Assembly (NCBI GenBank): GCA_963575745.1
Contig: CAUYUJ010000107.1
Coordinates: 62,001 to 118,160, forward strand
Source of the DNA: Prorocentrum cordatum
Lineage: Eukaryota
Reading direction: 5' to 3'
DNA: 56,160 nucleotides
In this document: positions 1 through 54,580 of the stretch, piece after piece
Numbering within the stretch: position 1 is the first letter of the stretch
Layout of the letters: each line of letters opens with the position of its first letter
Translations under genes and position numbers: made by a program
The notes under the pieces: model-generated
Seen by the model: the letters and a program-made list of their open reading frames with translations, nothing else
Databases searched by the model: none
What the model was told of the DNA's origin: nothing

Positions 1-2389
1 TGTTAGAGCTTCCAGGGAGCTTTCACATACCATGTTAACGCTCCAAGGGAGCTCCCACTGAGCTCTAAGATGCTACGTTAAAGCTCCGTTGGAGCTCGGT
101 ATTTTAGAGCTCCCAGGGAGCTCTAACATAGGAGCTCTAATAAATCATGTTAGAGCCCCCATGGCAGCTCTAACATACTCGAACATGCTATGTTAGAGCT
201 CCGTTGGAGCTCTAACAAGCCATGTTAGAGCTCCGCCGGAGCACTAATATACCATGTTAGAGCTCCCAAGAAGCTCTAACATACTCGAACATGCTATGTT
301 AGAGCTCCGTTGGAGCTCTAACAAGCCATGTGAGAGCTCCCACGGAGCTCTAACATACCATGTTAGAGCTCCACCGGGGAGCTCTAACATACTGGAACAT
401 GCGATGTTGAGCCCCCAGGGAGCTCCCACTGAGCTCTAACATGCCATGTGTAGAGCTCCCTTGGAGCTCGGTATTTTTAAGAAGCTCCCAGGGGGCTATA
501 ACATGGGAGCTCTAACATACCATGTTAGAGCTCCGTTGGAGCTCTAACATACTCGAACATGCCATGTTAGGGCTCCGTTGGAGCTCTAACAAGCCATGTT
601 AGAGCTCCCATGGAGCTCTAACAAGCCATGTTAGAGCTCCCAGGGAGCTCTAACACACTCGAACATGCCATGTTAGAGCTCCGTTGGAGCTCGAACAAGC
701 CATGTTAGAGCTCCCGCGGAGCTCTAACATACCATGTTAGAGCTCCCAGGGAGCTCTTACATACTGGAACATGCTATGTTAGAGCTCCGTTGGAGCTCTA
801 ACATACCACGTTAGAGCTCCCACGGAGCTCTAACATACCATGTTAGAGCTCCCAGGGAGCTCTAACATACTCGAACATGCTATGTTAGAGCTCCGTTGGA
901 GCTCTAACGTGCCATGTTAGAGCTCCTACGGGGCTATACCATGCCATGTTAGAGCTCCCAGGGGACTCTAACATACTGGAACCTGCTATGTTAGAGCTCC
1001 GTCGGGGCTCTAACAAGACATGTTGGAGCTCCCGTGGAGCTCTAACATAGCATGTTAGATCTCCCAGGGAGCTCTAACATATTGGAACCTGCTATGCTAG
1101 AGCTCCGTTGGAGCTCTAACATGCCATGTTAGAGCTCCCACGGGGCTCTAACATACCATGTTAGAGCTCCCAGGGAGCTCCCACTGAGCTCTAACATGCT
1201 ATGTTCAAGCTCCGTTGGAGCTCGGTATTTGAGAGCCCCCAGAGAGCTGTAACATGGGAGCTCTAATATAGCATGTTCGAGCTCCCTGGGGTCCCTAACA
1301 TACTCGAACGTGCTATGTTAGAGCTCCGTTGGAGCTCTAACAAGCCATGTTAGAGCTCCCACGGAGCTCTAGCATACCATGTGAGAGCTCTCAGGGAGCT
1401 CTCACATACTGGAAAAAGCTATGTTAGAGCTTCGTTGGAGCTCTTACATGCCATGTTAGAGCTCCCACGGAGCTCTAACATACCATGTTAGAGCTCCCAG
1501 GGAGCGTTAACCTACGCGAACGTGCTATGTTAGAGCTCCCAGGGAGTTCCCACGAGCCTAACATGCCGAATTTAAAGCTCCGTTTTGGAGCTCGTATTTT
1601 AGAGCTTCCCGGGAGCTCTAACATGAGAGCTCTAATATAGCATGTTAGAGCTCCCAGGGAGCTCTAACATACTACTACCATGCTATTTTTAGAGCTCCGT
1701 TGGAGCTCTAACAACAGCCATGTTAGAAGGCTCCCACGGAGCTACTAACTACCATGTTAGAGCTCCCAGGGAGCTCTAACATACTGGAACATCTATTTGA
1801 GCTCCGTTGGAGCTCTAACATACCATGTTAGAGCTCCCAGGGAGCTCTAACATACTGGAACATGCTATGTTAGAGCTCCGTTGGAGCTCTAACATACCAT
1901 GTTAAAGCTCCCACGGAGCTCCAACATAGAATGTTAGAGTTCCCAGGGAGCGCTAGCATACTCGAACATGTCATGTTAGAGCTCCGTTTGAGCTCTAACA
2001 AGCCATGTTAGAGCTCCCGCGGAGCTTTAACATACCATGTTAGAGCTCCCAGGGAGCTCTAACATACTGGAACATGCTATGTTAGAGCTCTCAGGGAGCT
2101 CTAACATACTGGAACATGCTATGTTAGAGCTCCCAGGGAGCTCCCACTGAGCTCTAACATGCTATGTTAAAGCTCCGTTGGAGCTCGGTATTTTAAAGCT
2201 TCCAGGGAGCTCTAACATGGGAGCTCTAACGTGCTATGTTAGAGCTCCCTGGTAGCTCTAACCTACCCGCCGCCGCCGCCGCCGCCTCCTCAGAGCTCCC
2301 ACGGAGCTCTGACATACGATGTTTGAGCTCCCAGGGAGCTCTAACATAATCTAACATACGATGTTAGAGCTCCATTGGAGCTCTAACAT
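1..2389. repeat. Palindromic satellite, unit TGTTAGAGCTCC-(CAG/GTT/CAC)-GGAGCTCTAACA plus short linkers
   Basis: Dozens of tandem 32-42 bp units. Each core is a 12-bp inverted repeat with a 3-nt loop. Loop and linker variants recur in a roughly three-unit higher-order pattern. Runs off the left edge of the window. Confidence 0.97.
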
Positions 2390-2705: not shown

Positions 2706-3386
2706 ATGGCCGCGATGGCAGCATCTGGGCCGTCGACGATCCAGCTTCGTGCGACCATCAATGGAGATGGAGTCGTGGTGGGCGGTGCGACCATCAACAA
2801 TGGAGATGGAGTCGTGGCGGGCGGCGGCGGCGACGACCAGCGCGCCCCGGGGGCCGCCGCCGTGTTCCAGCATGTGGTTCATGTGCCAGCTGCTGGTGGT
2901 GGTGGCGCTGCGGCCGCAGGCCCTGTGGGCGCCGCTGCAGCTCCGGGTGGCGCACGGGCCGCACTCCCACTCCCACCCCCAGCACTTCCTGTCGCTGCCG
3001 CTGGGCAGCCTCCTCCTGTCGCTGTGCAGCCTGGGCAGCCTGGGCTGCCTCCGCCGGCGCCAGCGGGGCAAGCCTTGGAGGTGCCCGAGGGGTCTGAGGC
3101 CAACGAATTCGGCTGGCCAGCCACTGCGCCGTGGATCGCACCGCACTTCCGCCGGATCTTGCCCCTCGCGGCTGGCGCGCTCGGGTATCACAGCAGCCGC
3201 GTGATGGCCCGCTATCGCGGCGTTGACATCTGCACCGTATGCGGCGGCTTCTCTGAGCGTGTATGTTCCAGGAAGCTCTGCGCGCCCTGTTCAGGGATCC
3301 GCAGTGATCACTATGGCAGGCGCAACCTTCTTCGCATGCGCGTCGGCCACCACCCCAAAACTAACCGCGATCTTGCGGGCTGCTAG
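2706..3386 (+). CDS. Pro/Ala/Gly-rich protein with C-terminal His/Cys putative Zn-binding motif
   Basis: Within ORF 2361-3386; plausible start MAAMAAS at 2706. C-terminus YHSSRVMARYRGVDICTVCGG...LCAPC...GRRNLLRMRVGHHP has an H-CxxC-C pattern like C-terminal motifs of non-LTR element proteins. Short internal duplication at about 2751-2825. Confidence 0.5.
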   Translation: MAAMAASGPSTIQLRATINGDGVVVGGATINNGDGVVAGGGGDDQRAPGAAAVFQHVVHVPAAGGGGAAAAGPVGAAAAPGGARAALPLPPPALPVAAAGQPPPVAVQPGQPGLPPPAPAGQALEVPEGSEANEFGWPATAPWIAPHFRRILPLAAGALGYHSSRVMARYRGVDICTVCGGFSERVCSRKLCAPCSGIRSDHYGRRNLLRMRVGHHPKTNRDLAGC

Positions 3387-3994
3387 CGTGGTGAGGGCCC
3401 GCCACGCGCCGCGCGCTGGAGTAAATGGGGGGAGGAGGGGTGGGGGGAGATGGGGGCGAGGCGATATGATCAGAGATTTTGACGACCGTGACGACGACCG
3501 CGACGACGACGACGCGACGACGACCCGACCCGACTCGCCCTTAATCCTTAGGCCTCATCTGCATTCTGTGCCCTGCAGGACGCCGCCCCCGCGGCTGCTT
3601 CCCACGGTCCGTCGGCCCGATGCCACGCGCGCGCTCGATGCGAGGCCGCGTGGGCTGCAGCATGCGCGCCGTCTCATCCCCCGCCCCGCAGCGCGCGCCC
3701 CCCCCCCCCCACTGGCACCACTGGACGTTTGCGCAAGTGTCGGGCTTATGCCGATCGGATCAACGCCCCATGGCTCCAGGCCCCCCCAGGGCTCCCCCCC
3801 CCCGACTACATGAATTATCCGACGCTGTCCGCCGCGAGGGCGGGGGGGGAGGGGGGGCGCGCTGTAGCTGTTCTCTGTTCTATCGGCTAGCGCAGTCAGT
3901 CGAAACCTTCGGCCTGGCAGCGAATTTCGAAAGCATAACAGATTTATGGGGTTCTGGATCTACTAGGACTCAAAAAATGAGTGCGTTGAAGATT

Positions 3995-4115
3995 GGGATC
4001 TCCTCTTGACGCCCTGAGGGGCGAGGAATTTCTGGCAATCTCTCTTGAGGCCCTGTGGGGAGATAGAACTTCTGGGATCTCCTCTTGAGGCCCTTAGGGT
4101 AGTTAGAATTTATTG
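3995..4115. repeat. Three ~40-bp degenerate direct repeats (ATCTCCTCTTGAGGCCCT...GG)
   Basis: Copies near 3995, 4037 and 4074, upstream of the large ORF. Confidence 0.6.
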
Positions 4116-4461
4116 GTGCCGTTGGGGTCTTGCAAAATCTCTTGGCCCACCCATCAAGAGCTGGTAGGCCATCTGGGGGGAACTCGACAGGCTCTTGGCG
4201 CCCTCGCTCGCTGAAAATGCATTAATCTTCGCATTGCTTCGAGGGAATGGGCGACTTCCGACATCCGTGAGTTCGTCTAGAATTGGTTGCGGCTATTTTC
4301 GCTCTGCTTCCTATCCGCCCTCTGGACGTTCCATCGGCTACAACGGCCCCTGTTATTCCATCATTGCCCAATTCCATTCCCACCACGGCTCCAGCCCGAC
4401 CTGCAACAGGCGCGCGAGGTGGAACGGCCAGCCCGCAGCTGAACCAGCCCGCCTGAGCGCG

Positions 4462-7400
4462 ATGAGCGGCTTCGCGGCGCAGCCGTTCAAGGACTTCTGG
4501 ACCGACAAGGTTTCCCCCCTCATCGAGACTGACTTCAAGCGGCTTCTCAAGACCATTCCGAAGCGCGTCGCTGAGATGGCCGAGAAGCCAGACAAGTCGC
4601 AGGAGGACCAGTCGAAGAATATCTCGAAGAAGGACAGCAAGGAGAGAACTCCATTGCAGGAGAAGCTCGCCAGGATCATCGAAGAGTGTAACGAGAAGGG
4701 CGAGCGCAGGAATGCCTATCGGAACCTGGCGTATACGGCGCCCATCGACAACAGTTTCCTGGGGGAGAATATCACGGTGGGCAAGGTGGAGAACGCGGCT
4801 GCGGACATGTTAATGTCGAACGTGCCGACGGGCGACGCGGCTGAAACAGCGAACGACTCTCTTGAGGGCGCTGGCGACGTCGAGTGCACAGCCCAGGGTA
4901 ACCCACAGCGGCGCACCGTGGAGACGCTAAGCCAGGTCAAGGGTGGCAGGCCTTGGAACATCCCGAAGCAGGTTGAGGAAGGGTTCGAGATCCCCATCAT
5001 GCTCACCAGCGTGAACCAGACCGCTGTGCCCGAGATCGGCAAGTTCAAGCGTTTGGGCAGTGGCGTCGTGGTCAACGCTGTCTGGCTGGCCTACTACTGG
5101 GCGAAAGAGGAAGGCAACAGGCAGGCCGCACAAGCGGTGGAGGACTTGATGCTGGATTGGCCCTCCGATTTCGTGCTGATCCCGGGGCGCTCGGCTGAGG
5201 AGGTCGAGGAGAACATGTTCAAGTGGTCTGTCAACCAGAGAGCCCGCCACGAGCGCCTGCGCGATTTCCTCGGTGTCGAGAACCAGAACCTCATGCGCAT
5301 CGTGGCACGTGCGGCGGAAATCTCGAAGAGCGGCGGGCCAGGTGGCGGGAACCCCTCGGCAGAGAATGTGCAGGCGTGGTTGGAGAAAAACATACAGTGG
5401 GGAATGATGCACTGCCCCTGCCTGAGGACCGTCAGGACGCACATGATCAACTGGCTCGCTATCGAAAAGTGCCCAGGGGCATTGCTGCTTTTGGATGCCG
5501 CCGTGAACCGTTGGGGGCGAGACACTCTGCTGGACAAGCCCACGCAGCTTGGGATGATCATCGCGAAGACGGACGCTTTCTCGCTGGGGTACGTCTTGGA
5601 AGGCCTGTACTCGCGGACGTGGCGGAAGAGCGTGAAGGACCCGTACAGCGCCTCCATCATCGGCCAGGTAGTGGCCGAGATCTTGTGGGCGAAGAAGTAC
5701 GTGGCGAACTTTCTGAAACAGTACCCAGACTTGTTCAAAGGGAGCACTGGCTGCAACAGCACTGAAACACCAGACACACAGGAGAACGCCGCCGAGAGAA
5801 AAGTCATGGTCATGGCGAGGCAATACCTCGACTCGCCGCTCAAGTTCTTCGAGGAGACTGAGGGGCCTGACAAGGACTCGACCTGGGTGCAGTCACTGCC
5901 GACCGACGCGCTGCGCTTGGCGATGAGACACTTCTTCGACATAGGCCAGGAATTCTACAAGCAGGAGATCTCTGGCGCCCTAACCCAGCCGTGCGCCGAG
6001 CGCTACAACATGGACAAGTTCCACAGGAGCGCGCGAGTGAACCAGAGGTTCTTCGAGAAGTTCCAGATCGCGCACGACTCCCTCGTGGGAACCCCCCAGG
6101 AACCGTCAGAGGAAAAGCCTGCAGACAGCGACACGGTCGGTGCTGCAACAGCGGGCGGCGCTGGAACAGCGGAGGCGGCCTCCGAGGACAAGAAGAAGAT
6201 CGACGTCTCCCCGAGCGACGTGAATAACTTCAAGGCGCTGTGCGAGCAGCAGTGCTCTACCGTGCTGGATACGCGGGTCGTCGTGATCATGGCGGAGGGC
6301 AGCGCCATGGATACCAACGCTTCGGTTACTAAGACACGCCTATACCAGAACCTCACAGAGAATGCATCAGCGATGGGCTTCTACGATGTCAAGAATGCGA
6401 AGTTGTGCTGCGTCTTCGAGGGGGAAGGCCTCGCGCGCCGTGAGCCCGCGCTGGACGAGCAGGATTTCACACGCTACCTGAAGTCCTTGGAACCGCTGAT
6501 GGTCGGTGGACGGGGCGTGCTGTGCGTGCTGACGGGCCGCGCGCAGTCGAACCTCCCGAAGATCCAGGAGATCCTCGCCGCAAACAAGTTCCGCACGGTC
6601 ACATACCACCTCGCCTACAACACGAAGCAGATGCAGCAGTACGGCCACTTCCAGAGGCAGCGAGGCCTGGCGAACTCGCGCTCGCACGAGGTCATGTTGC
6701 CTTGCTACAAGGGGAGGAAGCCGACGCAACTGGCCATTATCAGGCAGTTCGTGGACGCGGGCAGCCCCCTCTTCAACGAAGTGATGAGGAACGTGCCTGT
6801 CCTGCCGCAGAAGAGCCACGCCCTCGTGCCCAAGCAGGTTCGGGAGACCAGCTTGGCCAGCATGGTCGGCCAGTGCGTCGCCGAGGTGGAGGCGGAGGAG
6901 CGAGAGAAGCTGGGGCATTGCCCCCGTCTCCTCCAGGGGGACGAGGGCGCTGATTGTGGCGCCGAGGCGCGCGACGAAGCTGCGACAGCCGTCCGCCCCG
7001 AGAAGGCCTTCGTGACTGCGGCCGTGAAGAAGCGGAAACTCGACCGCCAGCTCACGGGAACGGAGGTGCCGTGGTTCCCGCACGACAACGACATCGAGCT
7101 CTTCAAGGAGCTCTGCCACGAGGCGGGGAAGCCCAGGTGGGTGTACTTCGGCACGCCTGCGGGCGGCGCAGGCATGCACGGCTGCATCGAGAGCGGTTGC
7201 AGTGTGTTGGCCTTGACTTTCGACGACCACCACGCGAGGGTGCTCAAGCCGTTTCTCGTGGAGCGTGCCGTCGAGGCCATGCTCGGGGGCAGCACCATGG
7301 TGTTCGTGAACGAGGACCTGCTTGCACGCTCTGTGCAGTTGCGCCTGACAAAGGAGGGCCCGAAGGAGGACCCGAAGGATGGGAAGAAGGAGGACGACAA

Positions 7401-7590
7401 CAAGAAGGAGGGCAAGAAGACGGAGGACAAGAAGAAGGACAATAAGGATAATAATAAGAAGGACAAGAAGGATGACAAGAAGAAGGGTAAGAAGGGTAAG
7501 AAGCGCGACGCCGACGCGTCCTCGACCTCAGACTCCTCGCCCTCAGACGACTCCTCGGCCTCGAAGAAGAAGAAGCCGAATACAAGCTGA
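4462..7590 (+). CDS. Intronless ~1042-aa protein: ParB-like region, HTH, divergent beta-class N6/N4 DNA methyltransferase-like domain, Lys/Asp-rich tail
   Basis: Uninterrupted ORF (track 4195-7590; ATG MSGFAAQ at 4462) with strong G/C third positions. C-terminal order F..YLKSLEPLMVGGRGVLCV / HEVMLPCYKG / FPHDNDIELFKEL / VYFGTPAGGAG...GCSVLAL.FDDHH parallels the N6_N4_Mtase pattern. GFEIPIML...KRLGSG...EEVEENMFKWSVNQR resembles ParB. Coding status is strong; the domain calls are moderate. Confidence 0.75.
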   Translation: MSGFAAQPFKDFWTDKVSPLIETDFKRLLKTIPKRVAEMAEKPDKSQEDQSKNISKKDSKERTPLQEKLARIIEECNEKGERRNAYRNLAYTAPIDNSFLGENITVGKVENAAADMLMSNVPTGDAAETANDSLEGAGDVECTAQGNPQRRTVETLSQVKGGRPWNIPKQVEEGFEIPIMLTSVNQTAVPEIGKFKRLGSGVVVNAVWLAYYWAKEEGNRQAAQAVEDLMLDWPSDFVLIPGRSAEEVEENMFKWSVNQRARHERLRDFLGVENQNLMRIVARAAEISKSGGPGGGNPSAENVQAWLEKNIQWGMMHCPCLRTVRTHMINWLAIEKCPGALLLLDAAVNRWGRDTLLDKPTQLGMIIAKTDAFSLGYVLEGLYSRTWRKSVKDPYSASIIGQVVAEILWAKKYVANFLKQYPDLFKGSTGCNSTETPDTQENAAERKVMVMARQYLDSPLKFFEETEGPDKDSTWVQSLPTDALRLAMRHFFDIGQEFYKQEISGALTQPCAERYNMDKFHRSARVNQRFFEKFQIAHDSLVGTPQEPSEEKPADSDTVGAATAGGAGTAEAASEDKKKIDVSPSDVNNFKALCEQQCSTVLDTRVVVIMAEGSAMDTNASVTKTRLYQNLTENASAMGFYDVKNAKLCCVFEGEGLARREPALDEQDFTRYLKSLEPLMVGGRGVLCVLTGRAQSNLPKIQEILAANKFRTVTYHLAYNTKQMQQYGHFQRQRGLANSRSHEVMLPCYKGRKPTQLAIIRQFVDAGSPLFNEVMRNVPVLPQKSHALVPKQVRETSLASMVGQCVAEVEAEEREKLGHCPRLLQGDEGADCGAEARDEAATAVRPEKAFVTAAVKKRKLDRQLTGTEVPWFPHDNDIELFKELCHEAGKPRWVYFGTPAGGAGMHGCIESGCSVLALTFDDHHARVLKPFLVERAVEAMLGGSTMVFVNEDLLARSVQLRLTKEGPKEDPKDGKKEDDNKKEGKKTEDKKKDNKDNNKKDKKDDKKKGKKGKKRDADASSTSDSSPSDDSSASKKKKPNTS

Positions 7591-9004
7591 AACAGAGCAC
7601 AGGCTCGAGCACAGGCTGCAGCATAATTCGACAGCTCCGACGCCGGAGCCAGCCCGCGCGCTCCTGTTCCCGTGCGTGGAGCTGCCACTTGTTTGATTTT
7701 GGAATACAGCAGTCGCGCGCTGGCGGCGTCGCCTCCGTTCTCGTAATGGGACGCGCGCCACATTCTGGCCTGTGCAGTGCACGGCACCTTGCGTACAGAT
7801 AGGACCATAGTCCTCCGTCATCCCTTCGTCGCCATCCGTCGCACTTGGCCCACGGCGCAGGCAAGGCGCAGAGTCAGGTTGCTTGCCTTTCCACAGGGTC
7901 CCCCTGTTGCATCCTACGCTTTCCGTTCTGAAGCTGGGGAGCTGGATAAACGCCAGATGCCATGCCGCCAAGGCCCTTGCATCCTTGCGGCGCTCTGTAG
8001 GGGCGGGCCAGGATGGGGATGCAGCAGGGTGGGGAAGACACGGGAAGCAACGCTCCGATGAGCGGCCGCAGGGGGAGGAGGAGGACGGAGGAGGGGCCCG
8101 CAGGCGTCTCGGTTCACTGAAACTTAGCGGGCCCGCAGGGACGACACTGCCGTCAGCGGGCCTCCGCGGCGATGGCTGCCTCGGGCGGCAGCGGTCGCGA
8201 CAGGGACAAGGTTCTCTTCTATAAGTGGGGCTGTTACCTGCAGGGTGACGGGTCGAACAACGACACGATCGACAAGAAGCTGGGGGATGCCTGCAGCAAT
8301 AGCATGGCCAGGGTGGCAAAAGGGGCCCCTACCGCAAAAGTGACGCTGGGGAAGGTAACGAAGAACAAATGTGTGTTGACGTGGCCAAAGCCAGTTTCGC
8401 ATGACACCTGCACGCGGCTCCGCAAGATTGCGCTGGGCGCCAACTGGAAAGACTATGTGAGCAAGCTTGCGGGGGTGCCAGGGTGCGCGAAATGGGCTGG
8501 AACAGCTAAACGCTGCAGAAGATGAGCCAGCTGTCGCCGAGGGCCACGGTGTCGCAGGAGAAACCCTAGAGGACGCGCTGGGGAAGTGCTCGCTCCCGCC
8601 GCGGACGGGGTATCGGAGCCTGCGCCACCGACAGCTGCTCGTCGCGGGTCTGCTGGTCCGAGAGCGGTGTCCCACGGCGAGGGCCGCGTGAATCTACTTG
8701 CGCTGAAGCTCCACGCGGTCGGGCACGCGTGCGAAAACAAACAGAAGGGCAAGTGCGAGGACCTGCCGCTCGAGCACGACGTGCAGTGGGAAGGAGGGGG
8801 GCTCGGCCAGGGCTCTTTCGGCAAGGTCTACTTGGGCGCGCGACAGGGCGACAAGACTGGCCTTGCGATCAAGATGCTGCGGGACGACCCCAGCGGTGCG
8901 CAGAAGGGGTGCAATGCGGATGCCGTCGGAGGGGCTCTGGATGAGGTCATGCGCCACGGTGTTGTGGGCACGCGCCCGCGTCTCGTTCGCTTACTCGACG
9001 TGGG

Positions 9005-9087
<83 letters not shown>

Positions 9088-9493
9088 CAGGAGGTTGTGC
9101 CCAGGAACTGCAACAGCCCCGAAGAAAGCACACCGAGAACTGCAACAGTCAGCACCAAGGATAGATTGGAAATGGACGGAGCACATCGGCCTCGTGCACG
9201 AGTTGTTCGAGATCGACGCCCGCCAATTCCTCGAGGGGTCATCCTTCGCGCAGACAGGGATGCGCCGCGTCCTGAACAGCGTTCTCGAAGGGCTCCAGCA
9301 CATGCACGACAGGGGCCTCATTCACTGCGACATCAAGCCCGCGAACATCCTGATGCGAGGATCGCCGCAGACGCGCGGCTGCTTCGAGAAGCAGGCACTT
9401 GTATCACGTGAGCTTGGCGAATGGGACCCCGTCGCGCCGTGCCCAAAGAGCAAGCTGCAGTTCGATTGGCAGATCCCGAGTTCCTTCGAGGCG

Positions 9494-9790
9494 CTCGTCG
9501 TCGACGTCGTCGTCGCCGTCGTCGTCGCCGTCGTCGTCGTCGTCCTCCTCCTCCTCGTCCTCCTCGTCCTCGTCGTCCTCGTCGTCCTCGCCGTCCTCGT
9601 CGTCCTCGTCGTCCTCGTCGTCGTCCTCCTCGTCGTCGTCGTCCTTGTCGTCCTCGTCATCCTCGTCATCCTCGTCGTCCTCGTCGTCGTCCTCCTCGTC
9701 CTCGTCGTCGTCGTCCTCGTCGTCCTCGTCATCATCGTCATCCTCGTCATCCTCGTCGTCGTCGTCGTCGTCATCCTCGTCATCATCGTC
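9494..9790. repeat. (GTC/CTC/ATC)n compound microsatellite inside the intron
   Basis: Direct reading. Confidence 0.95.
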
Positions 9791-9819
9791 GTTCCTTCGA
9801 CTAAGATCCCGAGTTGTCA

Positions 9820-10050
9820 GGGCTCACATGGAGCTTTAAAATAGTATGTTAGAGCTCCCAGGGAGCTCGAACATGCTATGTTAGAGCTCCAAGGGAGCTC
9901 TAACATGCCATGTTAGAGCTCCCTGGGAGCTCTAACCTAGCATGTCAGATCTCCCCAGGGAGCTCTAACATAGCATGTGAGAGCTCCGATGGAGCTCTAA
10001 CATAGCGTGTTAGAGCTCCAATGGAGCTCTAACATCGCACGTTAGAGGTC
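9820..10050. repeat. Second patch (~7 units) of the TGTTAGAGCTCC...GGAGCTCTAACA palindromic satellite, intronic
   Basis: Same core unit as 1-2389. Confidence 0.93.
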
Positions 10051-12245
10051 CGACGACGCCCTCATATACGAGGTCAGAGCTCAGCTTATCTCACTAGCCT
10101 TCATGTTAGGTCTCACACCGAGTTCTAACAAGGGAGGTTCCACCCTTCCCCCGAGATGCCGTCGTCGTGCCCTCTATCCCTCCCTGCCCTCCAGGGGGAG
10201 CTCAGTCGCCGTCGCTCCCCTCTCCTCCATCCGCCCCTCTCCGCAGGTGGTGCTCGGCGACCTGCTGTGTGGAGATGGCGGGCCCCCGCGGCAGGTTGAA
10301 GAAGGAACTGCGCTACAGCCCGACCTGCGATGACCTCGGAGTACGCGCGCCCGCTTACAGAGCGGTAGACGTTTTCTTGGGGAACCAGCGCTACTCAGAG
10401 GACCTGGACATGTGGTCCATCGGGTGCCTGATGGCGGAGTTGAACACGCGCAAGGTGTTGTTCCAACCACCAGAGCCTTGCGGCGCGCTCGGGCATCCTC
10501 CAGGGGGGCACCCGAAAGACTTCGTGGTTTTCTGCAGGGAGGTCATGGGGATCCCAGGCAAGGAGCCAGGGTCGGGAGCCTTCTACAATCACGAGGGCCA
10601 GGAACCCGCCCCGTGGCTGGAGAACTTGCCTTTCTTTGAGAAGTGGTTCAAGCGGTCGGGCGAGGATTGGCTAAAGGCTGAAACAGCGAAGGCACTCGAC
10701 GGCCGAGGACGCTGGCCCGTTGACGAACTTGCAGACTGCCCCCCAGACTTGTTGAAGGCCGCCGAGAGCTGCCTGCTTTGGCACCCTGGCGCCAGAGCGA
10801 CAATCAGTCGTCTAAGGGCTCGTCGCTTCCTGCAGCCGGCTGGCGCCCAGCTCGTCGCGCGCATCTCCATGGCGCAGGGAAAAAACGGCACGGGCACGAT
10901 AGCGGAGGCGGAGCTGGACCCAGACATGCTCCGCTTCTTGCAGAGAGACCCGTGCTGGCATAACTTGGCCGAGGAGCGCCTGGACACGGGGGCAACCGTC
11001 TCCAAATGCGTTTTTTGTGGTTGTGTTTTTTTGTTTGTTCGGATTTTGTTCTTTTTGGTGTTTTCTGTTGTTTTTCTTTGTTGTGTATTTTTTGTTTTGT
11101 GTACCCCCACACACACTTTTTGTTGTTTTTTTTTATTTGTCCTTTTGATGATCGTTTAGTTTGTGTGGTTCTGGTTGTTTGTGTTTGTTTTTTTGGTTTG
11201 TTTTTGTTTTTTTCTTTTTTTGGTTTTTGTTTTGTGTTTTTTTTTTTTGTTTTCTGTATCATGGTGTTGTTGTTTTTGTTGTTGTTGTTTTTGTATTTTT
11301 TGTCATTTTTGTTGTTTTTTGTCTTTTTTCTTATTTTTTTGTTTTTTGTTTGTTTTTTTTTCAAATTTTTCCGACTGGGGGACCCCCCCGAGGGCGAGCA
11401 AAGGGCTTGAAAACCCGAGCTGGGACGAGTGGCCGTGTGGGCAAGCCACGATGCCGCAGCCTCAACAAGGGCGGGAATTGCCCCCTCGCCCCACATGGCC
11501 GCCTTCGTGCGAGCGCTGCGGAAGAAGATGCGCCCGTGGCTGCAACAGCTGGGAGACAAAATGCGCGAGGCTGTCAAAGCCGACGGTATGCCACCTGCCA
11601 TCGTCGAGCAGAACGGAAAGCCCATCATGACAGAGCACTTCGCCGACAACGCGTTCGCGTACGCATCGATCCAGCTCATGCAACCAGGCGCGCGGGACGA
11701 TGGTTGGCACACAGATGGCGGATGCTCCCTGTTGCACGCGGCCGTGACGATTTTCGGGACGCGCTCCGTGCAAGTGAGGATCCCAGGGGTCCTGGGAGCA
11801 CATGATGGGGCGTCACCCTCGAGCACGGCCACCTGCGGAAGGGTCGTCACCCTCGAGCAAAAGCCTGGGTCCTTCTACATGGGCACCCTGTCCTCCCTCG
11901 AGCACAACGTGCACCACCACGCCTCCGCGGACTGCCAGGAAGGTTTCGCGACCCACCACGAGCTGCAACAGCGCGTAGACGACAGCAGGCTGCAGATCGC
12001 CGTCATGATCCGCTCCGACGTCTTTCGGGAGTTCAGGGCGCGCAGGATCGACGCCACGCCTGGCCCGGACGAAGGAGTTCTTCAACGTTGTGAACCACGT
12101 CGTGGCCGATCACCTGGCGCGGGTCCCCGTGGCGCTGCCCGACCTCACGGGGGTGTTTGACGAAATGCGGTGGCCCGACCTCGCGGAGGTGCTTGACGAA
12201 ATGGGGTTTTCCGATTAGTACTCAGCACGGCCCGCGCAGTCCGAA

Positions 12246-12515
12246 ATCATCATCTTCATCGCCATCATCATCGCAATCATCGACTTCATCATCATCGTCA
12301 TCATCATCATCAGCATCAACATGTTCACGCCGCCATCATCGTCATGCGGGTCTTGATTTAATCATCATCATCGCTACATGATGATGACGATGACGAGGAG
12401 ATGTTGATCGATATTATGATGATGACGATGATGAGGAGATGGTGATGATGATGGCGATGACGCGGACGATGATGAATATCATGACGACGATGATGACGAT
12501 GATGATGAAAATGAT
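12246..12515. repeat. Head-to-head (ATC)n / (GAT)n degenerate microsatellite, fold-back
   Basis: ATC-type tract 12246-12375 followed by the complementary GAT-type tract 12378-12515. Confidence 0.85.
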
Positions 12516-13832
12516 GCAAAAACAGGTGGAGTCGGTTGAGTCCGAAAACTTCGCCTTAAATCAAGCCAGCTTAGCACTTCAGATCTGGACCAGATCGCGG
12601 CCGCTCTAAATCCTGAGCAGGTGGAGCAGTTGGCGGACAGACTGTACCAGCAAGACCCTTGGGCCGCTGGCCAGGGAGCCATGTCCGCCATGGTGACGCG
12701 TAATCGTCAGGCCATGCAGGGAAACTTGCCCGTCAATGGACTCAGCAATCATGTGCCCGAACCGCAGTGAGACCCGCAGACGTTCGGCCGCATCTTCGGA
12801 GAGCCTGCTCGATTTGAGCAGATGCCTGGGAGCCCCTCGCATAGCATGCACACACCGAGGGGCATGACCCCAGTGGCGACGCCACCAGCACAGTCTCCGT
12901 TTGGGACTCCTGGTCGCTCTGCCACGAATGGCACTCTCATGGAGAGGATCGCCGCGGCCAGAGCTGATCATGGCACAGCTCTCCTGAACATGATGCCACC
13001 CGGCACGCCAACGAGTCAGCAGGGAAACCTGCCCGGCACTCCAATTCACCACCGACCATTTGCTGGCCAAACTAATGTTGCTGGAGTGCCTGGTGACTAC
13101 CGTGCAAGGGTGGCAGCTGCGGTGCAACAGGTGCAGAGTCACAACCTGCCCCACCCGAGTGGTCAGAGGTGGAGGCCGGCCTGGTCCTGGGAGCCAGAAG
13201 GTCCCAATCCACGGGATCCTGCTCGGCAACGAGCCTTCATCCCAGCCTTCAATGCTCACCCGAGCATGGCCCAGGGGCAGAGGCCAGCGCCAGCACGCAT
13301 GGATCCGCCACTGTACCCTGATGGGTCTAGAGTCCCGAACAGGTTTGTTCGCGAGACGGCGGATCAGTTTCATAGCCTCACGAATGTGCGCTGCAGTGAT
13401 CAGTCCATGTATCCGCACATGGCCTTCATGCCCGCGCCGACAACGCCAGAGGTGGCCGTCCAACCCACTGCCCATTCGATATCATCAGGCAGTAGGGGAG
13501 TGCCTGACTATATCAGGCAGACGTACCACTCTCAACAGGCGTGTTTCAGGCGCAGGCAGGCCGTGCAGAGCGTACGTGACCAATCACGTGCAGCTGCACT
13601 TGAGGTCGTGAGGAACAGAGGCTCACCCACGCGAGGAAACTCGCCCGCTGTGACGCCTGCTGCCTCCGCAACGGCAGTTCCTCCAGCAGTGGCTGCCGTA
13701 GCGCCGGAGGTGCTAGCTCCCGCAGGGGATCCTCCAGCGGCCTTCGTGGACTCCGAAACGGTCCTGGAGAGACAGCGGCGGGTGCACCCCAGAGCGGCAG
13801 ATGTGGAAGTATTCGCTGGGATGGAAGACACC

Positions 13833-13989
13833 TGCGCGGTATGCCTCGAGGAGTTTCAGCCGAGGGCAAGCGTTTACCGCTTGAGGTGTAACCACCTATT
13901 CCACGAGGAGTGCTGGAACTCGAATGTGGTGGGCCATGTTGCCAATCAGCGTGAGGGAGACCCTCAGCAACCACCATGTGCTATCTGCC
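13833..13989 (+). pseudogene. RING-H2 zinc finger within the retrotransposon polyprotein
   Basis: CAVC-x14-CNHLFHEEC-x21-CAIC fits the C3H2C3 spacing. Confidence 0.9.
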
Positions 13990-14849
13990 GAGCGCCTGGC
14001 ATTATAGCGTCGTCATTTCCATGGACCGGCTCCTACACTCAGGCTCCTGAGCAAGCAGCGAGGGAGCTGCGGGAGTTGAGGAGCATGGTGGAGGAGATGA
14101 CAGCCAGGATGCTGGACAGGCAGACAGCTCAGCCCCAGCAGCAGGGAAACCTGCCGGAGGAGGTGAGGCCGCCGATGGAGACGGGATACTTCGACCAGCT
14201 TATCCCGACGACGGCGCCTCAGCAGGGAAACCTGCCTAACACTGCACTTGTCAGACAGGTGGCCCCTCAAATGTCTCCCCAGAGTGGGGGCGGGGCAGAG
14301 TTGGCACTGGGCCCTGAACAGCTGCGTGAACTGCGTGTTCGCCATTTCCAGACCCAGATGGACAATGCGCACACAACGTTCATGCTGGACGCCGACAATC
14401 CTGAGACTGAGAGTGCTTCGTTTGATATCTCAGATTCCTCAGTGGCGACAGCGGCAACAGCAGTCGGGGCCGTCGAGCTCTCAGCCACGAACAAGGAGTT
14501 CGATGAGTGGTTGCAGTACAGGGGCCACCTCACGAATGAGGGGCTGCAGGACATCCCTTCATTCGTACTTGACGCTGACGAGTCGCACTACCCGCGAGCA
14601 GTATACGAGCATACGTGACGAGTATGCCAACTGGCGGGAGGAGCAGGGCGCTCAGGCTCAGAACGTGTCGTACTTCCAGTACATCGACCTGGCACGTATG
14701 GCCGAAGGCAGGCCGGGTGCCAGCACAATGCGGGGAAACCCGCCAGGGAGTACGACCGAATTGCGGGGAAACCCGCCAGATGGCCCAGCTGGCACTTCAG
14801 AAACAGTGCACATCAAGCAGCCTAGTAAGACCTTCCTGGAAGATGGCGG

Positions 14850-17139: not shown

Positions 17140-17780
17140 TAACTGCGTGGATATGTTGGAGCTTTGTGGAGGTGAGGGTGGCATTTCAGAGCTTGCCTTC
17201 TCAAGGGGTCTCTCCTCAGGAGGCAACTTAGACAAGACTACATGCGTCGACCTGGGAGATCCCTCGGTGCAGCGAGCTGTAGATCATTACTTCGCAATAT
17301 GCTACGTACGAGTTGCCATGCTGCAGCCCAGTTGCCGCGCCACAGGACCACCATCCTACTACAACTACAAAGTCAATCACAATGCTTGGGAACAGCACCA
17401 TACATAAGATTTACCACACATAAATTATTGTGGTAAAATTGCTGTCGTTCAAGATAACGCACGGAGGTGGTTTATACGCGAACAACCCACAGGAACATGG
17501 GTGGATGAGATTTCCCCATGGAAAGAACTTGCCAACCGACCACATATCACAACCGTACGCATTGATCAATGTGCGACGGGACTTAAAGATACGGCTGGTG
17601 ACTATGTCAAGAAGCCGACAAATATCACCAGCAACGACGAGACGATTCTTAAACACTTCGAGCGACTCAAATGCAACGGTCAGCATGCGCACGCACAACC
17701 ATGCAACAGAGAGTTTTCACTGGCACAAAAATACACTCGACGACTGCAGTCTGCCTTTGTGGAAGCCGTCTATTTGGCGA
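17140..17780 (+). pseudogene. C5 cytosine DNA methyltransferase-like domain 2
   Basis: Motif I-like DMLELCGGEGG (17150), LD...DL, motif IV-like LQPSC (17321-17335), motif VI-like FIREQP (~17480), DQCATG, KKPT, C-H-H, AQKY. One in-frame TAA at 17405 separates the two listed ORFs. Confidence 0.7.
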
Positions 17781-18549
17781 AAGCCATTGACGCTACGCGC
17801 GGAGACGCGCCTACACGCACTGCGCATGCTTACCCTACTGACCTTCCTGATCAAGCTGAACCAGGAGAAGGCATGAGACGCATCGGCGATCGTATCATCC
17901 CAAAAGTGGCTACATGCCCAGCATGCATCGACAATGTCCGAAAGGACAGTCCTAGCCATAACAGAGACCCCACACAGTGTAAGTATCATGACTCTATCTC
18001 TGTATACTGGCCATGTCCTGCATGCCAAAGGGATCTTACGATAAGCAAGGGTGTTAAGAACCACCTCGATACTGAACCCGGTAAATGTCGTTTTGCTGAA
18101 CCGTTCAAACTTCCAGATGATCATGATCCCGAAGGCAAGAATGTGCCAGCTTGGTGGAAACCCTTACCCAAACCTGGTGAGGGCCAAGCTTCCGCATCAG
18201 GTGGCCGTCAAGGCGCTCACGCCAGGCCACCACGACCACGATCTTTTGGGAACGCTGATCCTACATCTGGTGCCAGCAGTCACGACATTCTACGAGACGC
18301 GCCCGAGCGTGGAAACACGCCTTCTGCGTCTTCTGGCGAGCCGCCACAGGTAGCGGCCCGCCGCGGCCGCCTACAAGGCATACCACCACCGCCAGATGCA
18401 GTTGACGAAGGAGACCGACTGCGGAGAGCTACAAGGAACCCTCTTGCCTCAACCGGCTCGGGGGCTCCACGACTACCCGACTGGACGAGATTTGATATCC
18501 AACGCAGTCTGCAAAATCTCCGTAGTCACGAACCTCATGTCGTTAAAAA

Positions 18550-54512: not shown

Positions 54513-54580
54513 CCCCGCGCGGTTTCTTGGGTCTGCCTCTGGCGATAGCCAAACGGCGGGCCCTTCGCTCGGGCGCAGCC

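What the first reader, a model, noticed from the sequence alone, without database searches (positions are those of the whole stretch)
4462..12218. Candidate nucleic-acid modification module: ParB/MTase-like gene next to a kinase-dioxygenase gene
Seen: two co-oriented, intron-poor genes under 600 bp apart in otherwise gene-empty DNA, one with amino-methyltransferase-like motifs and one with an HxD...H dioxygenase. Established: ParB-MTase fusions and 2OG-Fe(II) base-modifying enzymes co-occur in phage and transposon DNA-modification loci, and dinoflagellate DNA is rich in 5-hydroxymethyluracil. Inference: this may be cargo of an undescribed mobile or virus-derived element encoding a DNA reader/writer plus an oxidase. 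No transposase or capsid gene is visible.
Basis: partly seen in the sequence, partly recalled or inferred. Interest (0 to 1): 0.85.

Follow-up and report, generated by a model that had tools for sequence, protein, structure and literature searches.

The report
ParB/methylase-like gene beside kinase-oxygenase gene
A dinoflagellate-type genome carries an intact gene for a phage-style, methylase-shaped DNA-binding protein next to a decayed kinase-oxygenase gene, and the same two gene families sit side by side in other marine contigs, pointing to an undescribed, probably chromatin-related gene pair.

Summary
Gene 1 (4462-7590, +) is an intact 1042-aa intronless ORF. Gene 2 (8172-12218, +) starts 581 bp downstream. 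Neither gene 1 nor the C-terminal domain of gene 2 matches any Pfam family. A confident AlphaFold model shows that gene 1 residues ~600-950 have the beta-class N6A/N4C DNA methyltransferase fold (CcrM Z 17.6). Residues ~78-412 weakly resemble ParB-N plus an HTH (Z 6.8 and 5.8). The canonical DPPY catalytic loop is replaced by a near-invariant DVKN, so ordinary amino-methylation is unlikely. Gene 2 encodes a small N-terminal domain, a CMGC-like kinase and a cupin/DSBH domain with a conserved HxD...H...R. This copy carries an in-frame TGA and three frame breaks, so it looks like a pseudogene. Both families are large and unnamed. Linkage recurs: 5 of 9 informative metagenome contigs, from 3 lineages besides the window, have the gene-2 start 544-688 bp downstream of gene 1 on the same strand. 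I found no terminal repeats, conserved flanks, transposase or viral relatives. Verdict: a conserved two-gene cassette with phage-like architecture. Mobility and nucleic-acid modification remain unproven.

The parts
4462..7590 (+). Gene 1: intact intronless CDS of 1042 aa (P0002). Member of a large unnamed family.
   Evidence: ORF and translation. 16 near-length homologues at 43-61% identity. 751 representative clusters at E<=1e-3.
4693..5697 (+). Residues 78-412: ParB-N-like region, including the conserved GERRN patch (4699-4713).
   Evidence: VIA wide: pNOB8 ParB-N 5k5d_B Z 6.8 (212 aligned, rmsd 6.4) and PadC 6ryk_B Z 5.8 (99 aligned). Conservation: E81 37/41, R83 38/42, N84 35/42. Atlas leads to ParB_N, GmrSD_N and DUF6551 at 0.83-0.84. 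No Pfam hit.
5272..5469 (+). Residues 271-336: winged-helix/HTH-like three-helix unit inside the N-terminal half.
   Evidence: Many HTH/wHTH DNA-binding domains at Z 5.2-6.2, 47-66 aligned residues. These are middling scores.
6247..7311 (+). Residues ~596-950: domain with the beta-class N6A/N4C DNA methyltransferase fold.
   Evidence: Foldseek PDB: M1.HpyAVI E 2.3e-4, TMt 0.67-0.70. VIA: CcrM 6pbd_B Z 17.6 (218 aligned, rmsd 3.2); M.BceJIV, M.PvuII, M.RsrI and EcoP15I Mod at Z about 15. pLDDT blocks mostly above 90.
6379..6399 (+). FYDVKNA: the loop after the strand that occupies the motif IV (DPPY) position. Near-invariant but non-canonical.
   Evidence: Column counts Y47/50, D47/50, V42/52, K48/52, N47/50, A48/51. 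Order of secondary-structure elements in the model. Comparison with E. coli YhdJ, which reads IIHGD...DLIFADPPYN. The positional equivalence is inferred, not a residue-level superposition.
7072..7173 (+). WFPHDN (7072-7089) to GTPAGGAG (7150-7173): counterpart of the motif X / motif I cofactor-binding segment.
   Evidence: W62/65, F64/66, P66/67, H56/65, D62/66, N59/66; G66/69, T61/70, P67/74, A63/71. YhdJ has HPTQKP...VLDPFAGSFTTG in the same order and spacing.
7363..7587 (+). Lys-rich then Ser/Asp-rich disordered tail ending in a KKKK patch.
   Evidence: pLDDT below 50 for residues 968-1042. The tail is conserved in character across homologues.
7591..8171 (+). 581-bp intergenic spacer between gene 1 and gene 2.
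   Evidence: Spacers of 544-688 bp in L003, L004, L013 and L020.
8172..8525 (+). Gene 2 N-terminal domain (~100 aa, no known family), followed by an in-frame TGA at 8523-8525.
   Evidence: Translation. HMM and tblastx matches to the same domain downstream of gene 1 in other contigs. The domain is contiguous with the kinase in the intact 898-aa P0222.
8526..9005 (+). Linker and kinase N-lobe exon (GLGQGSFG at 8799-8822, LAIKM at 8862-8876).
   Evidence: Pfam Pkinase E 0.0054 on this piece. tblastn with P0222. Coordinates.
9006..9170 (+). Intron-like interruption containing a ~85-nt poly-T run.
   Evidence: Sequence. Gap between tblastn segments.
9179..9400 (+). Kinase catalytic-loop exon (HCDIKPANIL at 9323-9352).
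   Evidence: Pfam Pkinase E 4.5e-10. tblastn. Coordinates.
9401..10246 (+). Intron-like interruption with GTC-type triplet repeats and palindromic GAGCTC-core repeats.
10247..11012 (+). Kinase C-lobe exon. The frame changes at 10265, inside the DLG (DFG-equivalent) motif.
   Evidence: VVLGDL at 10247-10264 and CVEMAGP at 10266-10286 are in different frames. Homologues read VV(I/A/L)(G/A)DLGxVE. tblastn 55% identity to P0168.
11013..11385 (+). T-rich low-complexity interruption, absent from the P0168 coding sequence.
11398..11482 (+). Linker exon piece (AKGLKT...CRSLNKGG), then a frame change within 11476-11482.
11483..12073 (+). Cupin/DSBH domain with H72 (11708-11710), D74 (11714-11716), H137 (11903-11905) and R173 (12011-12013).
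   Evidence: 68% identity to P0168. 62 homologues. Invariant residues. Model pLDDT 79.2. Fold searches.
12072..12218 (+). C-terminal tail (KEFFNVVNH...MGFSD, stop at 12216-12218), in a third frame after a frame change near 12070-12073.

Best explanation
The locus is one copy of a conserved two-gene cassette in a dinoflagellate-type nuclear genome.

Gene 1 encodes a nuclear, DNA-associated protein built on the architecture known from phage ParB-methylase fusions. It has an N-terminal ParB-like module with an HTH-like unit, a helical spacer, a C-terminal domain with the beta-class N6A/N4C methyltransferase fold, and a Lys/Ser-rich tail. The cofactor-side motifs (X-like WFPHDN, glycine loop GTPAGGAG, acidic residue after the next strand) are near-invariant, so the domain probably still binds SAM or a related nucleotide. 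The DPPY target-base loop is replaced by an equally invariant DVKN. The protein therefore most likely does not methylate exocyclic amines. It more likely acts as a DNA/nucleotide-binding scaffold or performs a different reaction.

Gene 2 belongs to a family that fuses a small N-terminal domain, a CMGC-like protein kinase, and a cupin/DSBH domain with a conserved HxD...H...R. That signature fits an Fe(II)/2-oxoglutarate oxygenase.

The two families have stayed adjacent, co-oriented and 544-688 bp apart, through divergence down to about 40% identity. I infer from this that they act on a common target, most likely chromatin or DNA-bound proteins. One possibility is that the kinase acts on the Ser-rich tail of gene 1. 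In this window gene 1 is intact while gene 2 is decayed.

Shown here: the ORFs, folds, motif conservation, linkage, and lesions as they stand in this assembly. Inferred: cofactor binding, loss of amino-methylation, oxygenase chemistry, and functional coupling.
For: Gene 1 integrity and family size.

MTase fold: Foldseek top 28 listed hits are all beta-class DNA MTases. VIA gives CcrM Z 17.6 and five other beta-class enzymes at Z about 15, against MT-A70 proteins at 8.3-11.6. BFVD hits are phage and pandoravirus N4/N6 MTases and a phage 'ParB/Sulfiredoxin' protein.

ParB-like N-terminus: searches (Z 6.8 and 5.8; leads only), GERRN conservation.

Motif state: compared with E. coli YhdJ.

Gene 2 family: 62 homologues, 53 of them with a precomputed Pkinase domain. 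Intact 891- and 898-aa forms contain all three parts. The kinase profile hits CDK8/MAPK best, at E about 1e-17. DSBH model and searches. Invariant residues.

Linkage: of 26 metagenome contigs with a gene 1 relative, 9 hold at least 600 bp after its stop. Five of these (L003, L004, L013, L020, L022) encode the gene 2 N-terminal domain downstream on the same strand. L004 continues into the kinase. L004, L013 and L022 are one lineage, so there are 3 independent lineages plus the window.

Lesions in gene 2.

Dinoflagellate identity: an exact 21-nt spliced-leader relic at 54492-54512, with 0.01 expected by chance.
Against: No sequence-level membership in any known family for gene 1. Pfam hits for the relevant families were 0 of 24 members. 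PHROGs and NCBIfam gave nothing. PDB sequence searches gave nothing. hhalign against YhdJ gave probability below 1%.

The ParB match is middling (Z below 8) and comes from a whole-model search.

The DSBH matches are tied between metal-free cupins and oxygenases at Z 6.3-8.4, so the chemistry is not settled.

Four of the 9 informative contigs (L006, L007, L012, L023) show no gene 2 start within 640-1050 bp. L007 and L011 share a different upstream neighbour. Linkage is therefore not universal.

The gene 2 frame breaks could be assembly errors, and no reads could be laid to check.

No expression data, and no evidence that the two proteins interact.
Confidence: 0.55

Rival explanations
1. Cargo of a mobile or virus-derived element. 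On this view the pair travels together because it is carried by a transposon or an endogenised virus, and this explains the large family, the phage-like architecture and the decayed copies.
For: The family is very large and diverse, with 751 clusters at 50% identity. Several copies are split by stops or frame changes: L003, L004, L007, L011, and gene 2 here. The architecture and best viral structural hits are phage or giant-virus MTases and ParB proteins. Pairing with constant spacing would fit co-mobilisation.
Against: No terminal inverted or direct repeats bracket 4462-12218; the only long repeats are a palindromic satellite that also fills 1-2250. DNA similarity to the 26 related contigs is confined to the gene 1 CDS, 4516-7583. 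Upstream neighbours differ between lineages. No transposase, integrase or capsid lies inside or next to the pair; the copia RT at 20.3 kb is 8 kb away. No relatives of either gene in IMG/VR, and none of gene 1 in prokaryote genomes, though both searches are pattern-limited. Gene 2 has spliceosomal-type interruptions with at least one conserved position.
Confidence: 0.2
2. Two unrelated host genes whose adjacency is a neutral relic of segmental or tandem duplication in dinoflagellate gene arrays, with no functional coupling.
For: Dinoflagellate genes lie in long unidirectional arrays (PMC11572971, passages read). The window itself has further co-oriented ORFs. Four of 9 informative contigs lack the partner. 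Gene 2 has decayed here while gene 1 stays intact, so gene 1 does not strictly need this neighbour copy.
Against: Adjacency, orientation and spacing (544-688 bp) persist across copies that are only 40-63% identical in gene 1 and have no detectable non-coding similarity. Neutral linkage would be expected to erode at that depth.
Confidence: 0.2
3. A working nucleic-acid modification pair in the strict sense: gene 1 is an active DNA N6A/N4C methyltransferase (writer) and the gene 2 DSBH is a TET/JBP-like or AlkB-like base oxidase.
For: MTase fold with intact cofactor-side motifs. AlkB appears among the tied DSBH matches at Z 7.7, 111 aligned. Phage ParB proteins activate thymine dioxygenases, and those loci also carry N6/N4 MTases and kinases (PMC13229309, abstract and passages). 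Dinoflagellate DNA is rich in 5hmU (PMC11572971).
Against: The DPPY-type loop is absent and replaced by DVKN in 47-48 of 50-52 sequences. No Tet_JBP, 2OG-FeII_Oxy or JmjC Pfam hit in 0 of 63 members. No TET/JBP chain appears among the 50 listed rows of either VIA search. The dinoflagellate 5hmU enzyme has already been assigned to other proteins, the TET/JBP homologues CryTJ1 and AmpTJ1. The fused kinase is a eukaryotic CMGC protein kinase, not a nucleotide or DNA kinase.
Confidence: 0.07

Closest known systems
Phage/prophage ParB_N + N6_N4_Mtase fusion proteins (Pfam PF02195 + PF01555)
   Same: Same domain order: a ParB-like N-terminus followed by a beta-class MTase fold. The language-model leads and BFVD structural hits point to exactly such phage proteins.
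   Different: Gene 1 is about twice as long, with a ~250-aa helical region and a Lys/Ser tail. It matches neither Pfam model. It reads DVKN where DPPY should be. It is eukaryotic and intronless, and it has no relatives in IMG/VR.
CcrM and other beta-class DNA N6-adenine/N4-cytosine MTases (6pbd, 8urk, 1boo, 1eg2, 5hfj, 4zcf). E. coli YhdJ served as the sequence reference.
   Same: Best structural matches at Z 13.3-17.6 over 194-243 residues. Same permuted order: catalytic-loop strand first, cofactor loop last.
   Different: 8-16% identity and no profile-level similarity. The catalytic loop is not conserved. There is a disordered insert at residues 820-866.
Eukaryotic MTases derived from phage ParB-terminase loci, and ParB-HTH-Dam fusions of chlorophytes and chytrids (Iyer, Zhang, Aravind 2016, PMC4738411; passages read)
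   Same: These are precedents for phage ParB-linked adenine MTases acquired and expanded in algae.
   Different: Those clades are described for haptophytes, chlorophytes and chytrids, and belong to other MTase groups. The passages I read name no dinoflagellate family and no kinase partner.
Phage ParB-dependent thymine dioxygenases (5mYOX176/ParB176; PMC13229309, abstract and passages read)
   Same: A ParB-like protein is genetically paired with an Fe/2OG jelly-roll enzyme. Those loci also often hold N6/N4 MTases and kinases.
   Different: There the oxygenase is TET/JBP-type and stands alone, and the ParB has no MTase domain. Here the DSBH shows no TET/JBP signal, is fused to a CMGC protein kinase, and the system is eukaryotic.
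Prolyl-4-hydroxylase / PHD2 / AlkB-type 2OG oxygenases, and plain cupins
   Same: DSBH core plus N-terminal helices align over 107-132 residues at Z 6.4-7.7. HxD...H...R falls on the expected elements.
   Different: Scores are tied with non-enzymatic cupins such as the CENP-C cupin at Z 7.5-7.9. No Pfam membership. No 2OG oxygenase fused to a CMGC kinase turned up in my searches.

Membership tests
Beta-class N6A/N4C DNA methyltransferase (Pfam PF01555 N6_N4_Mtase) | MTase fold with the beta-class permuted order (catalytic-loop strand at the N-terminus, motif X and glycine loop at the C-terminus) | tested here: met
   VIA Z 17.6 to CcrM and 13.3-15.2 to ten other beta-class enzymes, model residues 596-950. 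Foldseek E 2.3e-4, TMt 0.67-0.70.
Beta-class N6A/N4C DNA methyltransferase (Pfam PF01555 N6_N4_Mtase) | Sequence match to the family profile | tested here: not met
   No PF01555 hit for P0002 at E<=1, nor for any of 24 members at E<=0.1. hhalign against YhdJ gave probability below 1%.
Beta-class N6A/N4C DNA methyltransferase (Pfam PF01555 N6_N4_Mtase) | Motif IV (D/N/S)PP(Y/F/W) after the first core strand | tested here: not met
   The position reads DVKN (residues 642-645): D47/50, V42/52, K48/52, N47/50. YhdJ reads DPPY there. The mapping rests on the order of secondary-structure elements and aligned ranges, not on a residue-level superposition.
Beta-class N6A/N4C DNA methyltransferase (Pfam PF01555 N6_N4_Mtase) | Glycine-rich cofactor loop (motif I) preceded by motif X and followed by an acidic residue after the next strand | tested here: met
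   WFPHDN...WVxxGTPAGGAG...ALCxD(D/E)HH are all near-invariant. Same order and spacing as HPTQKP...LDPFAGSFTTG...IGIE in YhdJ.
Beta-class N6A/N4C DNA methyltransferase (Pfam PF01555 N6_N4_Mtase) | SAM binding and methyl transfer to DNA | not testable with these tools
   Needs biochemistry.
ParB/Srx N-terminal domain (Pfam PF02195) | Sequence match to the family profile | tested here: not met
   No hit.
ParB/Srx N-terminal domain (Pfam PF02195) | ParB-N fold followed by an HTH | tested here: inconclusive
   5k5d_B Z 6.8 (212 of 250 aligned, rmsd 6.4, model 78-412). 6ryk_B Z 5.8 (99 of 132). HTH hits at 271-336 with Z 5-6. These come from a whole-model search in the middling range. The N-terminal half was not folded alone.
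ParB/Srx N-terminal domain (Pfam PF02195) | Arginine-rich GERR-type nucleotide-binding patch (the motif as a ParB hallmark is recalled, not taken from a call) | tested here: inconclusive
   GERRN at residues 80-84, with E 37/41, second R 38/42, N 35/42. It lies at the start of the ParB-aligned range. In the model it sits at a helix-to-strand junction.
Fe(II)/2-oxoglutarate-dependent oxygenase | Double-stranded beta-helix (cupin) core | tested here: met
   Model pLDDT 79.2 with seven strands. All top Foldseek and VIA hits are cupin/DSBH proteins.
Fe(II)/2-oxoglutarate-dependent oxygenase | HxD/E...H metal triad plus a basic residue on the last core strand | tested here: met
   H72 and D74 are invariant. 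H137 and R173 are at least 90% conserved in 63 sequences. H137 lies in strand 136-141 and R173 in strand 166-175.
Fe(II)/2-oxoglutarate-dependent oxygenase | Sequence membership in a 2OG oxygenase family (2OG-FeII_Oxy, JmjC, Tet_JBP and others) | tested here: not met
   0 of 63 members hit any such Pfam family at E<=1. The only PDB sequence hit for the domain was a metallo-beta-lactamase at E 0.99.
TET/JBP (5-methylpyrimidine dioxygenase) | Structural or sequence similarity to TET/JBP oxygenase domains | tested here: inconclusive
   No Tet_JBP Pfam hit. No TET/JBP chain among the 50 rows listed.
CMGC-group eukaryotic protein kinase | Pkinase domain with glycine loop, VAIK lysine, catalytic HxD loop and DFG-type motif | tested here: inconclusive
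   The family qualifies: Pkinase in 54 of 63 members, and best PDB profile hits are CDK8, MAPK and CDK12 at E about 1e-17. The window copy has GLGQGSFG, AIK and HCDIKPANIL, but its DLG motif is cut by a frame change at 10265.
Transposon or endogenous viral element | Terminal repeats or TSDs, a transposase/integrase/capsid gene, and conserved element ends among copies | tested here: not met
   No bracketing repeats. No such gene adjacent. blastn similarity to 26 related contigs stops at the gene 1 CDS. No IMG/VR relatives. Copies within a single genome could not be compared, because no genome is held.

The most novel reading that the evidence does not exclude
The cassette may be a new chromatin or DNA modification system in dinoflagellates, built from phage parts. 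On this reading, a ParB-gated, SAM-binding MTase-fold enzyme whose invariant DVKN loop catalyses a non-canonical reaction works together with a kinase-coupled Fe/2OG oxygenase. Candidate reactions include modification of 5hmU-rich DNA or transfer of a SAM moiety other than methyl. This would parallel phage ParB-activated thymine dioxygenase pathways and help organise the histone-poor dinoflagellate chromosome.
Probability: 0.12. Interest if true: 0.85.

Novelty: new variant of a known kind. Interest (0 to 1): 0.6.

Why it matters
Dinoflagellate chromosomes are nearly histone-free, heavily modified with 5hmU, and poorly understood. Few of the proteins that read, write or organise this DNA are known.

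This work identifies a large, strongly conserved and so far unnamed protein family with a phage-type ParB/methylase architecture and a remodelled, invariant active-site loop. It is repeatedly encoded next to a kinase-oxygenase fusion. That gives experimentalists two concrete candidates and specific residues to mutate: D642/K644/N645 and the glycine loop in gene 1, and H72/D74/H137/R173 in the oxygenase domain.

It would also add to the known cases of prokaryote- or phage-type DNA-modification enzymes recruited by eukaryotes, if the phage-type origin suggested by the architecture holds. If the pair proves to be a neutral neighbourhood or a dead MTase scaffold, the result is still a useful annotation of two large orphan families.

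Tried and rejected
Expression and read support. No RNA holder was listed for the stretch; one run of unknown kind held 0.34 of the words. Expression, splice sites and the reality of the gene 2 frame breaks stay open.

Binding. Complex prediction on gene 1 residues 60-545 plus the DSBH domain returned 'no answer'. This is not evidence either way.

Sequence-level family assignment of gene 1. All of these gave nothing relevant: Pfam, PHROGs, NCBIfam, PDB by sequence and by profile, and hhalign against E. coli YhdJ.

Viral or prokaryotic source. No relatives in IMG/VR for gene 1 or the DSBH domain. None of gene 1 in prokaryote genomes. All three searches are limited to two peptide patterns each.

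Fused gene1-gene2 proteins longer than 1825 aa: none found. This is weak evidence.

Element ends. The repeat search found only satellite and low-complexity repeats. blastn of window 3001-13000 against the fetched gene-1 contigs found nothing outside the gene 1 CDS.

Spliced-leader relic upstream of gene 1 (retrogene test). The only match in the window is at 54492-54512. There is none in the fetched loci.

Source names for relatives: none carried a name.

Earlier findings of this scan: nothing on this genome or on these sequences.

Literature. Searches for dinoflagellate + ParB + methyltransferase, Symbiodinium + ParB, dinoflagellate + N6-methyladenine + methyltransferase + transposable, DUF3723 + ParB and dinoflagellate + protein kinase + 2OG-Fe + fusion turned up no description of either family. 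The supplement of PMC11572971, which lists the dinoflagellate TET/JBP homologues, could not be read. I therefore cannot exclude that the kinase-DSBH family is listed there.

Considered and dropped. MT-A70 membership for gene 1: Z 8.3-11.6 against 13.3-17.6 for beta-class enzymes. The fungal DUF3723 lead for the N-terminal half: Atlas 0.88 with only 104-111 shared features, and no Pfam hit.

Full report
**What is in the sequence**

The window behaves like dinoflagellate nuclear DNA. GC is about 0.5-0.65 and no prokaryote genome is held for it. It contains an exact 21-nt copy of the dinoflagellate spliced leader at 54492-54512, where 0.01 matches are expected by chance. The leader sequence itself was recalled from memory.

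Within the finding, gene 1 is one uninterrupted ORF from ATG 4462 to TGA 7588-7590, 1042 aa. Gene 2 starts at ATG 8172, 581 bp further on the same strand, and ends at 12216-12218.

The DNA is not otherwise gene-empty. A 615-aa RING-finger ORF begins at 12771, and a copia-type reverse transcriptase lies at 20317-21528.

**Gene 1: family**

P0002 has no Pfam, PHROGs, NCBIfam or PDB sequence match. It nevertheless belongs to a large conserved family:
- 16 near-length relatives at 43-61% identity.
- 751 representative clusters at E<=1e-3, of which 425 are at <=1e-10 and 135 at <=1e-30.

None of the relatives carries a name. They sit on short environmental contigs. A profile of 24 members also finds nothing relevant in PDB or Pfam.

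**Gene 1: fold**

An AlphaFold2 model built on a 150-sequence alignment is confident: mean pLDDT 82.6, with 689 residues at 90 or above.

Foldseek against the PDB returns beta-class DNA N6-adenine/N4-cytosine methyltransferases as its first 28 listed hits. M1.HpyAVI scores E 2.3e-4 with TMt 0.67-0.70. CcrM, N4CMT, TTHA0409, RsrI, M.BceJIV and a type III Mod subunit follow, and MT-A70 proteins come after them.

VIA-align gives these scores over model residues about 596-950:

| Match | Z | Aligned residues | rmsd |
|---|---|---|---|
| CcrM 6pbd_B | 17.6 | 218 | 3.2 |
| M.BceJIV, M.PvuII, M.RsrI, EcoP15I Mod, Mbo45V Mod | 14.8-15.2 | 209-243 | 3.4-4.2 |
| MT-A70 proteins | 8.3-11.6 | 164-223 | 3.5-9.1 |

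The MTase fold is therefore firmly supported.

In the representative-wide search, the best non-MTase rows are a pNOB8-type ParB-N domain (5k5d_B, Z 6.8, 212 of 250 residues, model 78-412) and the ParB-like PadC (6ryk_B, Z 5.8, 99 of 132). A cloud of HTH/winged-helix domains matches residues 271-336 at Z 5.2-6.2. These are middling scores from a whole-model search.

They agree with weak language-model leads. Phage ParB_N + N6_N4_Mtase clusters score 0.78 for the whole protein. ParB_N, GmrSD_N and DUF6551 clusters score 0.83-0.84 for residues 60-430. The viral structure library also returns phage and pandoravirus N4/N6 MTases and a phage 'ParB/Sulfiredoxin' protein. A conserved GERRN patch sits at residues 80-84.

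I rate the ParB-like N-terminus as likely but not shown.

**Gene 1: motifs**

I took E. coli YhdJ as a tool-given beta-class reference. It reads IIHGD...DLIFADPPYN near the N-terminus and HPTQKP...VLDPFAGSFTTG...FIGIE near the C-terminus.

The model has the same succession of elements:
- Strand 606-610, helices, strand 637-642, then a loop.
- Much later, WFPHDN (residues 871-876), helix, strand 893-896, GTPAGGAG, helix, strand 914-919, then DD.

The cofactor-side residues are almost invariant across the deep alignment: W62/65, F64/66, P66/67, H56/65, D62/66, N59/66, G66/69, T61/70, P67/74.

The loop at the DPPY position reads DVKN and is just as invariant: D47/50, V42/52, K48/52, N47/50. This equivalence rests on element order and aligned ranges, not on a residue-level superposition. 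hhalign finds no significant sequence relation to YhdJ.

From established knowledge of amino-MTases, the two prolines and the aromatic residue form the pocket for the flipped base and its amino group. The family therefore fails this defining feature of an N6A/N4C methyltransferase. Even so, the site is clearly under strong constraint.

The protein ends in a disordered Lys-rich then Ser/Asp-rich tail, conserved in character.

**Gene 2**

The last exon (188 aa tested) finds 62 longer relatives at 43-77% identity. Of these, 53 carry a precomputed Pkinase domain. By hmmscan, 54 of 63 aligned members have Pkinase.

Intact forms of 891 and 898 aa show the full architecture:
- An N-terminal domain of about 100 aa.
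- A low-complexity linker.
- A kinase whose profile matches CDK8, MAPK and CDK12 best, at E about 1e-17.
- The C-terminal domain.

No member hits any 2OG-oxygenase, JmjC, Tet_JBP or cupin Pfam family (0 of 63). The domain has invariant W71, H72, D74, G75 and G76. H137 and R173 are conserved in at least 90% of sequences.

Its model (pLDDT 79.2) is a seven-stranded jelly roll preceded by helices. H137 and R173 lie on core strands.

Fold searches give only cupin/DSBH proteins:
- Foldseek: thiol dioxygenases, NO66, JMJD5 and sugar isomerases at E 5e-5 to 1e-3, but TM only about 0.3-0.4.
- VIA: Z 6.3-8.4, with ties between short cupins and the GGCX beta domain (77-95 aligned) on one side, and PHD2, P4H, AlkB, Ofd2 and PolD-type 2OG oxygenases on the other. 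The oxygenases cover more of the model, with 107-132 residues aligned over 1-188.

The fold is DSBH. Fe/2OG oxygenase chemistry is a reasonable inference from the HxD...H...R pattern, but the substrate is unknown. Nothing points specifically to TET/JBP.

**State of gene 2 in this window**

I compared the window with intact homologues. The coding pieces lie at:
- 8172-8522 and 8526-9005, one frame split by TGA at 8523-8525.
- About 9179-9400.
- 10247-11012.
- 11398-11475.
- 11483-12073.
- 12072-12215.

Three gaps look like introns or insertions: a poly-T run, triplet and palindromic repeats, and a T-rich tract.

Three further frame changes fall inside sequence that is continuous in the homologues:
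- At 10265, within the DLG (DFG-equivalent) motif.
- At 11476-11482.
- Near 12070-12073.

Gene 1 (3.1 kb) and the RING ORF (1.8 kb) nearby have no such breaks. This argues for real decay rather than random assembly error. I could not lay reads to check.

**Linkage**

A scan of metagenome contigs with gene 1 patterns gave 26 loci.
- 22 contain the end of the gene.
- 9 have at least 600 bp after its stop.

tblastn with intact gene 2 family proteins found the gene 2 start downstream on the same strand in L004, L020 and L013. In L004 the match continues through the kinase, P0222 residues 1-402.

A small HMM of the N-terminal domain added two more loci:
- L003, at E 2.4e-10. Its ORF also matches window 8298-8474 directly by tblastx, E 3e-12.
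- L022, more weakly, at E 0.0036.

So 5 of 9 informative loci are positive. L006, L007, L012 and L023 are negative within 640-1050 bp.

L004, L013 and L022 share 80-90% similar intergenic DNA and count as one lineage. That leaves three independent lineages plus the window.

Spacers are 544, 598, 563 and 688 bp, compared with 581 bp here.

Gene 1 identity to the window in these loci is 40-63%. No non-coding similarity to the window is detectable.

**Is it mobile or viral?**

I found no support for this beyond family size and the presence of decayed copies.
- No bracketing terminal repeats.
- No conserved flanks.
- A different upstream neighbour in the L007/L011 lineage.
- No transposase or capsid.
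- No relatives in IMG/VR or prokaryote genomes.
- No fused long form.

A shared intron position before the DLG exon is suggested by the many 524-aa ORFs that begin exactly there. That fits a host gene.

**Comparison with what is known**

Phage ParB-MTase fusions and beta-class MTases are the closest architectures.

Iyer et al. 2016 (PMC4738411, passages read) describe eukaryotic MTases derived from phage ParB-terminase loci in haptophytes, and ParB-HTH-Dam fusions in chlorophytes and chytrids. The passages I read name nothing for dinoflagellates.

O'Toole et al. 2026 (PMC13229309, abstract and passages) show phage ParB proteins that activate thymine dioxygenases. Those loci also often carry N6/N4 MTases and kinases. 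This is an attractive analogy but not a match.

The dinoflagellate 5hmU-forming enzyme has been assigned to TET/JBP homologues (PMC11572971, passages). Its supplement could not be read.

Six literature searches found no description of either family.

**Verdict**

There is a conserved pair comprising a ParB/MTase-fold protein and a kinase-DSBH protein. However:
- The MTase lacks its canonical catalytic loop.
- The oxygenase is of unknown specificity.
- This copy of gene 2 looks dead.
- Mobility is unsupported.

I file it as a new variant of a known kind, with moderate to high interest.

Noticed in passing
window 54492-54512 (+): Exact 21-nt dinoflagellate spliced-leader sequence in genomic DNA, inside a 491-aa stop-to-stop frame (54323-55798) with no Pfam match. 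This is the kind of relic left by retroposed, trans-spliced mRNAs.
   Followed up: partly
window 1-2250 and 9795-10082: Arrays of palindromic repeats of about 26-32 nt with a GAGCTC core (periods 32, 42, 74 and 106 bp). They fill the first 2.2 kb of the window and recur inside the second interruption of gene 2, giving long inverted matches between the two places.
   Followed up: partly
window 9005-9088 and 11013-11385: A poly-T run of about 85 nt and a T-rich low-complexity tract of about 370 bp sit in the interruptions of gene 2. The second is absent from the otherwise continuous coding sequence of homologue P0168.
   Followed up: partly
window 12771-14618 (+): A 615-aa ORF with a RING-type zinc finger (zf-RING_11 E 1.5e-8), co-oriented and 553 bp downstream of gene 2. 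I could not test whether it is also linked to the pair elsewhere.
   Followed up: no
window 17408-21528 (+): Three long co-oriented ORFs, the last with a copia-type reverse transcriptase (RVT_2 E 1e-9). Probably a Ty1/copia retrotransposon.
   Followed up: no
window 50785-53268 (-): An 827-aa open frame with no Pfam match.
   Followed up: no
L007:736-1089 and L011:24-383: Two contigs with gene 1 relatives share a conserved upstream ORF (about 65% identical by tblastx). It has no counterpart in the window, so the upstream neighbour of gene 1 differs between lineages.
   Followed up: partly
P0002 residues 60-430 (window 4639-5751): The language-model search places this part nearest to fungal DUF3723 clusters (0.87-0.88, 104-111 shared features). 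This is a weak lead that I could not test. From recall, DUF3723 is an accessory gene family of fungal Starship elements.
   Followed up: no
P0002 whole protein: The two best Atlas clusters (0.94 and 0.92; 813 and 1673 aa) are unnamed eukaryotic clusters whose few labelled members are Streptophyta. The family may therefore reach beyond dinoflagellates, or the labels may be contaminants.
   Followed up: no
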